Assembly (NCBI GenBank): GCA_951406725.2
Contig: OX597822.1
Span: 55,118,001 to 55,182,000, forward strand
Source: Octopus vulgaris
Lineage: Eukaryota
Length of the DNA: 64,000 bases
Direction of reading: 5' to 3'
Numbering within the stretch: the stretch's first letter is position 1; every line of letters begins with the position of its first letter. The notes beneath the pieces were generated by a model that saw only the letters and a list, made by a program, of their open reading frames with translations, ran no database searches and was not told the origin of the DNA. Positions 38,301-41,300 of the stretch are shown here, piece by piece. A program made the translations under genes and the position numbers.

Positions 38301-41300
38301 TGATGGTGACATCAACAGCAAGCATTCAATCTTGTTGAACTCTTTTCAAATGAATTTACGCTATATCTTTATATATAAAAGTGAAGTTGTGTGAGTGTCT
38401 GTCTCCTACGATTTAGATTCCTAACTACTCCCACATTTTGCGGTGCAGTTTAACCAAAACCGAGTATCTTATAGTCGTGATTCATATCGAGCCCTTCTGG
38501 GTATTAGCGCGCGTCTACGATGAGTTTACGATTTAAAAAAAATTTACCATCATTTTTTTCCATTTTAATGCATTTTTTTCGCTATTATATAAGGGAAGTA
38601 ACTCTCTAAAAATGTCTACGATGAGTCAACGATTTAAAAAAAAATTTACCATCATTTTTTTCCCATTTTTAATGCATTTTTTTGCTATTACTCTCTAAAA
38701 ATGCTTATATAGTTATTTCCCTTACAAACCCGAGCAACGCCGGGCGATACTGCTAGTTGGCTATAATTGACTTAATGAAGTATCCGTTGAACATTCGAAG
38801 CTGAAGTAATTCGTTCCATAATACCTCTGTGCCCCTCTTCCTATCTCTCTCTCTCTCTGTCTCCTTCAATTACCTACTTAACTGCATAACAATAGCTTTC
38901 ACTTCCTTCTAACTCTCACCACCACGATATTTCCCTCTACTAAACACCCCCTCTCTCTCTCTCTTTCTCTGATGCACACATGCACTTTACCTTCAGTCTT
39001 TCTCTTCTTCCTCTCCCTTCAGCTTAACCACTTCTCGGTGTAACATACGTAGTTACACTAGCATTTTAATATTATAGATTTTCTCAAAGATTAAAATCTA
39101 CATATTTATTAGATATTGCAATAAAACGTTAATTTTATTTATTTATTTTGAAAATCATAATCCCATAACGTGCCCAAGTTGCTGGTGACCTGGGGATGGC
39201 CGTATAGTTCAAACTTAAAAAAAAAAAAAAGATTCAAAAAAGGATATTTTCTTATTTTAGCCTAAAAATATGATTGAAACTACAGAAAATTGTTGTAAAT
39301 GGAATCATTACTGTTATTTTCTTCATATGTCAAACATAATTCTTTTCACTTACAGAGAGCAGGGAGAAAGAGCTTCAGCGATATGAAACCAACCCAAAGG
39401 AAAAAGAAACAAATACGTACCAGTAAGTTCATCAGCAGAAAAGGCATAAGGATGACATACAAAATTAGTATAACGTAAACGGATTTATAATCGATGGTGT
39501 TATTTAGGAATAGGGTGTGGAATGTGGTAGAGTAATCTAATTCCAGCATCATCATTAGAGATTTCAGAACGGACGGAAAAATCTGCTCGTAAGCCTCGGA
39601 CTAAATAGAAGAAAAAAAGAAAAGGAACTTTAAGGACGATTAAACCTTTTTAGACAATATAGAAAAATAAACCCCCCAAAACAAAAAAAAACCCAGATAT
39701 TTGTAACTAGAATCAGAATAAATGAAAATAGTAAACTGATGCAAACTGCATTCAAAGGTAGATTATCAAATGGTAAAGAATTGTCCGCTGTTCCCTGTTT
39801 CAAATGTTAAGTTGTATGCTAATTCCACATGTAGTCAGACTAGGACTTTCACTTATCTCTTGCCAGTTGAATACTTTGTCGCTGTTGTTGCTTTTGTTTA
39901 ACTCCAAGTGTGCAATCCTATGATCAACGGTATCTTTGACCCATTCAAAACTTTCATTTCTCAGAGCTTTTTTTTTTTTGATAATTTAAATTTTTGCATT
40001 TTTGCAGGTATCAAGTAATTTATTTAATTTGCAAATTTTCTGTTTTGGAGTTTTAAACTTGGGAATAAAAGTTTATTTATCGCTATGTATTCACCATGTT
40101 TCTTCTTACGATGTAATCACCATGATTTTTATTTATTCATCACTATGTATTCACCTCGTTTCTTATCGTCATATAGTCCCCATGTCTCGTGTTTATCGTT
40201 TTGTCTTTGTGGTTGACAACAAAAAGTTTCAACTTCTGCTGTGTGGCCAACAGAGTAATTCGATTGGCTAAATTACATAAAGGATCGTAACTTCTTTATT
40301 ATTAAAAATAAAAATTAAAGCGATTTTCGTCATTAGCAAACAAAACTGCACCAAAAGTACATTTTTTTAATAAATATTCAGTTGAAAATTTGAGAAAATT
40401 TAAGTGGATGGTAGAAATTTAACAAGATCCACTATATAAGTCTATTGCCTTTTAATCTTCTGAAAACGGAGTGAATTTTTTTTCTCGATTTCTATATATT
40501 CACTTATCGCAGCTAAGGCTTTGTAGGCTTTGAACTCCAACTGTGAAATTACCAGTTCGCAGTCTGAAATAGACCACACCATTTTCAGGAGAACGACCTA
40601 AAAATCAATCAATCTGTTTGAAGCCATGCCGTGAACATCATTGTTATGTGTAGTTTGGGTTCTAATGGGATAGACAACCAAATGAAAACCATTGTTATTG
40701 TTTACGTGTTTATTTTACTTTTTATGTTACACGGACTCGACATTCAGCGTAGTGATACATTATGTACTTTACACACAGTTTGTACTATTCACTAACTAAA
40801 TAGTGCCAAGAGTGGGGATGCACGTATACACATAGATATGAATGTGTAACAATCATCTTGAATGTTTATGAGATTCGTGTGTTTTTCTCGTGTGATAAGC
40901 AGTGCCTGCGAAGATCTAAGACTAGTGATTTCAAGACCACCGCGGAGAACACACATTTTACCCTTCGCCAGAAGCCAGACCAGAGCAGAGCTCTGAAGGC
41001 ATTCCAAGCAGGACATAGACTCTCACCTAGCAAAACAAGGAAAAAGCTTCAACTTGGGCGGTCTCTCATCTTTCAGATAACTAATGTCCGAGCAGATACA
41101 GTTAAGTCCTAATCTCCTTACCAGTGAAGATTTGATAACTTGTGTATGTATATCCTTAATAAAATCTGTTGTTAAATGTACGCGTGTTTAGCTTTGTTGT
41201 AATATAGCGTAGCCAACTTCATCTCATTTCATGATTAATTCAGCAACATCATCTCCAATAATATTGGTTTCAAATTTTTCCGCAAAGGCAGCAATTTTGG

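What the first reader, a model, noticed from the sequence alone, without database searches (positions are those of the whole stretch)
39421..39600. TRPA1 pore lacks the selectivity-filter glycine
Seen: [14 protein letters not shown], in an intact frame (L/E codons meet at 39544/39543). Established: TRPA1 filters read MMLG(D/E), e.g. human SIIQTFSMMLGDINY with G914-D915, which governs Ca2+ permeation and pore size. The alignment implies a clean one-codon deletion, or a G-to-L change, while the S6 gate [13 protein letters not shown] is perfect. Inference: a channel with a shortened filter and altered selectivity; this may mark a wider mollusc or lophotrochozoan clade.
Basis: partly seen in the sequence, partly recalled or inferred. 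Interest (0 to 1): 0.7.

Follow-up and report, generated by a model that had tools for sequence, protein, structure and literature searches.

The report
Mollusc-wide glycine loss in TRPA1 filter
This octopus irritant-sensing channel gene (TRPA1), like every mollusc copy sampled, lacks one glycine at the narrowest part of its ion pore that other animals almost always keep, a single ancient deletion that likely leaves a working channel with a shorter, predicted tighter filter.

Summary
Confirmed. Window 39600-39421 (-) is the pore exon of an intact octopus TRPA1 (100% identical to a UniRef Octopus vulgaris TRPA1-like protein). The glycine equivalent to human G914 is absent in DNA and in spliced contigs of 7 RNA-like runs from 4 studies. 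It is a deletion, not G-to-L: the gap scores best at G914 in 49-53 of 54 molluscs. It is not octopus-specific: 54 of 54 named molluscan TRPA1s (chiton, bivalves, gastropods, cephalopods) have the short loop; 147 of 147 named non-molluscan ones, including annelid, nemertean, bryozoan and flatworm, have the full length. With the pore loop removed the molluscan proteins form one clade (100/98): one loss on the mollusc stem. The acidic filter residue and the S6 gate are kept. A Gly-less filter is already known in a working insect channel, Rhodnius TRPA5B (PMC10993193), so the kind is not new; ten literature searches found no report for molluscan TRPA1. Altered selectivity is untested. Separately, this octopus copy has lost two of four calcium-site residues and both main reactive cysteines.

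The parts
39421..39600 (-). Pore exon of TRPA1 (residues 895-954): pore helix 1, Gly-less filter L913-E914, pore helix 2, first half of S6
   Evidence: spliced contigs
39541..39546 (-). L913 (CTG) and E914 (GAA) codons; the G914-equivalent codon is missing between 39544 and 39543
58379..58459 (-). TRPA1 exon, residues 668-694 (A-loop region; S677 where human has C665). First in-window exon; residues 1-667 gave no tblastn hit above 70% identity in the window and are inferred to lie beyond position 64000
57410..57480 (-). TRPA1 exon, pre-S1
50336..50474 (-). TRPA1 exon, S1
48310..48396 (-). TRPA1 exon, S2; A786 (about 48333-48331) stands where human has Ca2+-site E788
47095..47267 (-). TRPA1 exon, S3-S4; V803 (about 47240-47238) stands where human has Ca2+-site N805
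41647..41776 (-). TRPA1 exon, S4-S5 linker and S5
   Evidence: splice to 39600 in 4 of 4 runs
38136..38204 (-). TRPA1 exon, lower gate I955/V959 (IGLAVGDI) and start of TRP-like helix
   Evidence: splice to 39421 in 4 of 4 runs
36812..36922 (-). TRPA1 exon, TRP-like helix and C-terminal linker
35454..35551 (-). TRPA1 exon, start of C-terminal helix
32152..32350 (-). Last coding exon of TRPA1 with stop codon TAA

Best explanation
One glycine codon of the TRPA1 selectivity filter is missing in this octopus gene and in all molluscan TRPA1 copies sampled; it was likely deleted once, before chitons and shelled molluscs split, and the product is likely still a working cation channel whose upper gate is predicted to be shorter and tighter. 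Shown: the deletion, its register, its spread, retention of the acidic residue (E914) and of the lower gate, spliced expression. Inferred: pore helix 1 runs through L913 and E914 follows directly, taking the place of human D915; the ring of Gly backbone atoms that forms part of the upper constriction in human and fly TRPA1 is gone, so the constriction rests on Leu913 backbone and four Glu side chains; the channel would keep Ca2+ permeability but would pass large organic cations less well and dilate less on opening. Odds by step: deletion real 0.99; single origin on the mollusc stem 0.9; conducting channel 0.9; measurably different permeation or upper-gate behaviour about 0.55.
For: Spacing between the pore-helix anchor and the Y/F anchor is 11 residues in 54 of 54 named molluscan and 12 or 13 in 147 of 147 named non-molluscan proteins. 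Gap scores best at G914 in 49 of 54 against 53 distinct non-molluscan 12-mers and 53 of 54 against four spiralian ones; Lineus reads RCAMMMLGDYDF beside molluscan [11 protein letters not shown]. Tree without the pore loop: molluscs one clade, 100/98, one change, 100% of 200 bootstrap trees. In G000 the second TRPA1 on C3 is also short while a distant TRPA on C2 keeps the Gly. In 25 molluscan orthologues M911, M912, E914, D916 and the S6 gate are 25 of 25 invariant: strong constraint, not decay. AlphaFold monomers: octopus helix 901-913, 3-residue loop, helix from 917; annelid control helix 952-963, 5-residue loop L-G-E-I-D. Literature: upper gate = D915 plus the carbonyl of G914, dilating 8.5 to 9.7 A (bioRxiv 2019.12.26.888982); narrowest point at G981 C-alpha in fly (PMC10073219); D915E cuts the size limit from about 8.2 to 6.2 A and triples Ba2+ affinity (PMC5100928); RpTRPA5B lacks this Gly, conducts heat-evoked current and models with a narrower upper gate (PMC10993193).
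Against: No current has been recorded from any molluscan TRPA1 in the papers found, so altered permeation rests on analogy. E at the D915 position is the rule in invertebrates (110 of 141 non-molluscs), so the D915E result is not specific to molluscs. The TRPA5B authors judge that Leu/Glu keep the positions of L913/D915 and that neighbouring changes compensate, which could make the deletion nearly neutral. pLDDT over the filter is only 64 (octopus) and 73 (control), the models are monomers, and no pore radius was computed. Four of eight molluscan classes, Nautilus, brachiopods and phoronids were not among the named hits; only the best 120 of 391, 120 of 615 and 150 of 2054 hits were seen. Seven of 147 non-molluscs replace the Gly without shortening, so the Gly itself is not indispensable.
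Confidence: 0.55

Rival explanations
1. The deletion is real and mollusc-wide but functionally almost silent: neighbouring residues compensate, Leu913 and Glu914 sit where L913 and D915 sit, and permeation is that of an ordinary invertebrate TRPA1. It is then only a molecular synapomorphy of Mollusca.
For: Acidic residue and lower gate retained; the TRPA5B model keeps L/E in place and re-inserting Gly in silico distorts it (PMC10993193); several natural TRPAs replace the Gly by A, V, T, N or E.
Against: No other one-residue shortening was seen in 147 named and 119 unnamed covered non-short proteins, so length here is normally held fixed; the Gly forms part of the narrowest point in human and fly structures.
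Confidence: 0.3
2. The deletion changes gating, not selectivity: without the flexible Gly the upper gate is stiffer or shut at rest, shifting the channel towards high-threshold heat or other non-electrophile stimuli, as in the heat-gated Gly-less TRPA5B.
For: G914 is described as important in gating, and RpTRPA5B opens only above about 53 C and models with a closed upper gate; activation of human TRPA1 moves the pore helices and filter. Cephalopod copies lack the C621 and C665 equivalents.
Against: One precedent, from a distant subfamily, with no test tying its threshold to the Gly. Most other molluscs keep the cysteines (C621 equivalent 26 of 47, C665 equivalent 27 of 47).
Confidence: 0.12
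3. It is a Gly-to-Leu substitution with a one-residue deletion further back in pore helix 1, not a Gly deletion.
For: Three of 54 molluscan segments score best with the gap at F909 and one at S910 against all non-molluscs; the run MMML allows a slide.
Against: G914 is best for 49 of 54, and 53 of 54 against the nearest spiralian outgroups; octopus score 36.0 at G914 against 28.5 at F909.
Confidence: 0.02
4. Assembly error, RNA-level repair or a decaying pseudogene.
For: This octopus copy is divergent and has lost regulatory residues.
Against: Identical exon in contigs of 8 runs from 5 studies, spliced in 7; open frame over 11 exons; same loop in 54 of 54 molluscan proteins.
Confidence: 0.01

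Closest known systems
Human TRPA1 (PDB 6v9v, 6wj5 and others) and Drosophila TRPA1 (7ykr, 7yks)
   Same: Ankyrin repeats plus six-helix channel; best sequence hits (E 1.8e-56 fly, 9.8e-51 human) and best fold hits (7ykr, E 3.3e-52); two pore helices; acidic filter residue; lower gate I/V.
   Different: Filter lacks the G914/G981 residue and is one residue shorter; this octopus copy also has A and V for Ca2+-site E788 and N805, and Q and S for C621 and C665.
Rhodnius prolixus TRPA5B (PMC10993193)
   Same: Same Gly absent, Leu followed directly by Glu, shorter pore loop; it forms a heat-activated channel in HEK293T cells.
   Different: Another TRPA subfamily (insect TRPA5), so an independent loss by inference (its sequence was not in my tree); described in one channel, whereas here it is fixed in the TRPA1 orthologue across a phylum. 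No permeability data were found in the passages read.
Molluscan TRP gene surveys (oyster PMC8004665, scallop PMC8539334, abalone PMC12980990, cephalopods PMC13402157, octopus PMC12919962)
   Same: They catalogue these TRPA1-like genes; PMC12919962 counts two TRPA1 channels in O. vulgaris, matching the C9 and C3 loci.
   Different: Term searches of their main texts found no mention of the filter glycine and no recordings.

Membership tests
TRPA1 (alpha-TRPA) channels | Long N-terminal ankyrin repeat array followed by an Ion_trans six-helix domain | tested here: met
   Pfam on P0001: Ank_2 E 1e-72, Ion_trans E 2.4e-07; model topology. Only residues 668-1112 are encoded in the window.
TRPA1 (alpha-TRPA) channels | Groups with vertebrate and arthropod TRPA1 rather than with more distant TRPAs | tested here: met
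   Nested in the molluscan clade within spiralians, beside deuterostome and ecdysozoan TRPA1; best PDB hits are TRPA1.
TRPA1 (alpha-TRPA) channels | Lower gate I957/V961 in S6 | tested here: met
   I955 and V959; V invariant in 47 of 47 molluscan and 26 of 26 other rows.
TRPA1 (alpha-TRPA) channels | Filter L-G-(D/E) | tested here: not met
   L-E; Gly absent in 54 of 54 molluscan proteins. A typical, not a family-defining, trait: orthology by tree stands.
TRPA1 (alpha-TRPA) channels | S2-S3 calcium site E788, Q791, N805, E808 | tested here: not met
   This copy has A, Q, V, E; E788 and N805 are kept in 44 of 47 molluscan and 26 of 26 other rows.
TRPA1 (alpha-TRPA) channels | Reactive cysteines C621 and C665 for electrophile sensing | tested here: not met
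   Q633 and S677 in this copy; fly TRPA1 still responds to NMM without its equivalents (PMC10073219), so this does not show loss of sensing.
TRPA1 (alpha-TRPA) channels | Tetrameric Ca2+-permeable non-selective cation conductance gated by irritants or temperature | not testable with these tools
   Needs expression and patch clamp.
Insect TRPA5 | Membership of the arthropod TRPA5 clade | not tested
   RpTRPA5B was not fetched; the octopus protein sits inside TRPA1, so the shared deletion is read as convergence.

The most novel reading that the evidence does not exclude
All molluscs run their TRPA1 on a re-engineered, glycine-less filter fixed before the Cambrian radiation of the phylum, giving a non-dilating, narrower pore with its own ion selectivity and blocker pharmacology; insects (TRPA5B) reached the same design independently. 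It would be a natural experiment on what the filter glycine does in TRP channels, and would mean that human TRPA1 drugs and assumptions transfer poorly to cephalopod nociception. The octopus C9 copy would further be a TRPA1 uncoupled from calcium feedback and from the usual electrophile cysteines.
Probability: 0.3. Interest if true: 0.72.

Novelty: new variant of a known kind. Interest (0 to 1): 0.52.

Why it matters
TRPA1 is the main irritant receptor of animals and a candidate nociceptor in cephalopods, whose capacity for pain is a welfare question. The filter glycine is part of the narrowest point in solved structures, yet a whole phylum has done without it. That gives (1) a clean rare genomic change supporting Mollusca, usable to place aplacophorans and outgroups; (2) dozens of natural Gly-less channels with close Gly-bearing annelid and nemertean controls to test the role of the glycine in pore dilation and Ca2+ preference; (3) a caution when reading molluscan TRPA1 function or pharmacology from human data. 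Its weight is limited until a current is recorded, and by the TRPA5B precedent.

Tried and rejected
Assembly error or hidden micro-exon: rejected. Octopus- or cephalopod-specific change: rejected. Lophotrochozoan-wide change: rejected on annelid, nemertean, bryozoan, flatworm and rotifer copies. G-to-L register: disfavoured. The 60-residue exon alone found only TRPV1 weakly in the PDB; the 301-residue channel region was needed. A scan for columns that separate molluscs from others found mostly ankyrin-region differences and one near the pore (position 922, N in 83% of molluscs); no convincing compensatory partner. No run is on record as RNA ('no RNA holder listed'); the RNA label is a guess, though the contigs are spliced. 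The first tree included the pore loop and gave support 82; it was redone without the loop (P0291 dropped for lacking the anchor motif, 46 rows). No tetramer job was sent, as it would not give pore dimensions. Four papers asked for were not held. The Figure S2 alignment of PMC10993193 could not be seen; its text supplements hold no mollusc names. Earlier findings: none.

Full report
Observation. Window 39600-39421 on the - strand is a 180-nt exon between AG and GT that reads through pore helix 1, the filter, pore helix 2 and half of S6. The codons run M-M-M-L-E-L-D-Y with CTG at 39546-39544 and GAA at 39543-39541. The exon is 100% identical to part of P0001, labelled by its source as an Octopus vulgaris TRPA1-like protein of 1112 residues. 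Eleven exons from 58459 to 32152 give an open frame that matches P0001 668-1112 at 444 of 445 residues; the first 667 residues gave no hit above 70% identity in the window and are inferred to lie beyond its end. Against human and fly TRPA1 from the PDB, HMMER puts a one-residue gap at the Gly.

Is it real? Twenty of 24 listed runs hold the exon. I laid 8 of them. One that runs through both introns and seven guessed to be RNA, from five studies in all, show no other letter and no gap in the exon; all 4 runs join 39600 to 41647 and 39421 to 38204 at GT-AG, and the 3 RNA-like contigs stop at the exon ends with loose ends that are the neighbouring exons. The L|E junction is 57 nt inside the exon. 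The O. bimaculoides models carry the same loop.

How far does it reach? Three homologue searches and one representative search (only the best 120 of 391, 120 of 615 and 150 of 2054 hits were listed) gave 329 proteins; I labelled them by hand from source names. Counting residues from the pore-helix anchor to the Y/F anchor: 54 of 54 named molluscan proteins have 11; of 147 named non-molluscan proteins 141 have 12 and 6 have 13, 140 with Gly and 7 with another residue; of 128 then unlabelled, 119 have 12 or 13, 2 have 11, and 7 do not cover the site. The two unnamed short ones fall inside molluscs in the tree (P0025 among clams, P0157 beside cuttlefish). The molluscs include a chiton, protobranch and other bivalves, limpet, abalone, caenogastropods, heterobranchs, cuttlefish, argonaut and octopus, and fast-evolving paralogues of snails. 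The nearest outgroups seen are the annelid Owenia, the nemerteans Lineus and Tubulanus, the bryozoan Watersipora, the flatworm Macrostomum and a rotifer, all of full length. Aplacophorans, monoplacophorans, scaphopods, Nautilus, brachiopods and phoronids were not among the named hits. The set holds paralogues and near-copies (many Drosophila), so the counts are not independent events.

One event. A tree of 46 proteins with the pore loop masked gives molluscs as one clade, 100/98, with one change in 100% of 200 bootstrap trees, and annelid, nemerteans and bryozoan as successive outgroups. As chitons and shelled molluscs span the deepest split of living molluscs (recalled, not tested), the loss is placed on the stem. 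In the window's own genome the second TRPA1 (G000:C3) is also short, with L-E-P-E-F, whereas a more distant TRPA (G000:C2) keeps the Gly: the trait belongs to the TRPA1 lineage, not to octopus TRP channels at large.

Register. Trying all 12 gap positions, the G914 position scores best for 49 of 54 molluscan segments against 53 distinct non-molluscan ones and for 53 of 54 against four spiralian ones. It is a deletion, not G-to-L.

How it likely works. In human TRPA1 the upper gate is D915 plus the backbone carbonyl of G914 and widens from 8.5 to 9.7 A on activation (bioRxiv 10.1101/2019.12.26.888982, passages); in fly the narrowest point is the C-alpha of G981 (PMC10073219, passages). D915 sets conductance, divalent block and size limit: about 8.2 A, 6.2 A in D915E (PMC5100928, abstract and passages). 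Molluscs keep the acid (E in 52 of 54), and in 25 orthologues M911, M912, E914, D916 and the gate motif are invariant. AlphaFold monomers put the end of pore helix 1 at L913 with a three-residue loop in octopus, against a five-residue L-G-E-I-D loop in the annelid control, but confidence there is low (64 and 73) and no pore radius was computed. The model's best fold matches are TRPA1 structures. I infer a conducting, Ca2+-permeable channel with a shorter and probably tighter, less dilating upper gate. This last step is analogy only; a nearly neutral, compensated change is the main rival (0.3).

What is known. Rhodnius TRPA5B lacks the same Gly, has Leu-Glu in a shorter loop, gives heat-evoked currents above about 53 C, and models with a narrower upper gate; the authors suggest compensation by neighbours (PMC10993193: passages; section 13; text supplements searched, no mollusc names; its alignment figure not seen). 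So a Gly-less TRPA filter is a known kind. For molluscan TRPA1 I found no mention: ten full-text searches (listings only unless stated) and term searches in PMC12919962, PMC13402157 (also section 17), PMC8539334, PMC12980990, PMC8004665, PMC6085516 and bioRxiv 10.64898/2026.03.27.714695 (passages). The library lacks most subscription papers, and alignments shown as figures or in unseen supplements could already display the gap. No earlier finding of this scan matched.

A second oddity, specific to this copy. Of the four residues of the S2-S3 calcium site, whose loss abolishes potentiation and desensitisation in human TRPA1, this protein has A786 for E788 and V803 for N805, where 44 of 47 molluscan and 26 of 26 other rows keep each; both codons are in the window. 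It also has Q and S for C621 and C665; the cuttlefish and second octopus proteins lack both cysteines too. Fly TRPA1 still answers to NMM without them, so loss of irritant sensing is not shown.

Verdict. Observation confirmed; interpretation partly supported. A real, apparently unreported, phylum-wide variant of the TRPA1 filter with one functional precedent in another subfamily and no direct functional data. New variant of a known kind; interest 0.52.

Noticed in passing
window 48333-48331 and 47240-47238 (-): This TRPA1 copy has A and V at the calcium-site positions E788 and N805, kept in 44 of 47 molluscan and 26 of 26 other rows; O. bimaculoides keeps the E. It would be predicted to lack calcium potentiation and desensitisation.
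   Followed up: partly
window 58459-58379 (-) and P0001 residue 633 (outside the window): Cephalopod TRPA1s (P0001, P0004, P0064) lack the C621 and C665 equivalents that many other molluscs keep.
   Followed up: partly
L016:4383-4583 (G000:C3): Second octopus TRPA1 has a further altered filter, L-E-P-E-F with a proline, and GNI for GDI after the gate; nearly identical in Argonauta.
   Followed up: partly
P0004 (Acanthosepion pharaonis): A cuttlefish protein is sister to this octopus TRPA1 at 100/100, against the statement in PMC13402157 that cephalopod alpha-TRPA was found only in octopodiforms.
   Followed up: partly
P0128, P0131, P0147, P0150, P0165, P0188: Heterobranch snails and slugs carry a fast-evolving TRPA1 paralogue group; two have lost the filter acid too (N in P0147, K in P0188 of Biomphalaria), which would be expected to change ion selectivity strongly.
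   Followed up: no
P0122, P0282, P0301; P0136; P0045, P0087, P0089, P0269, P0277, P0281: Other filter variants outside molluscs: amphioxus has E-G-P in place of G-E-L, the nemertean Tubulanus has V for G, and six echinoderm proteins have a one-residue insertion in pore helix 1.
   Followed up: no
window 52019-51318 (-): Broken mariner-type transposase in a TRPA1 intron (HTH_48 E 3.4e-08, Transposase_1 E 5.2e-24).
   Followed up: partly
window 60681-60085 (-): Fragment with a zf-RVT domain (E 1.4e-09), likely a piece of a non-LTR retrotransposon.
   Followed up: partly
window 38262-38785 and 41275-41405: High-copy repeats in the introns beside the pore exon draw very deep contig cover in all four runs; not identified.
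   Followed up: no
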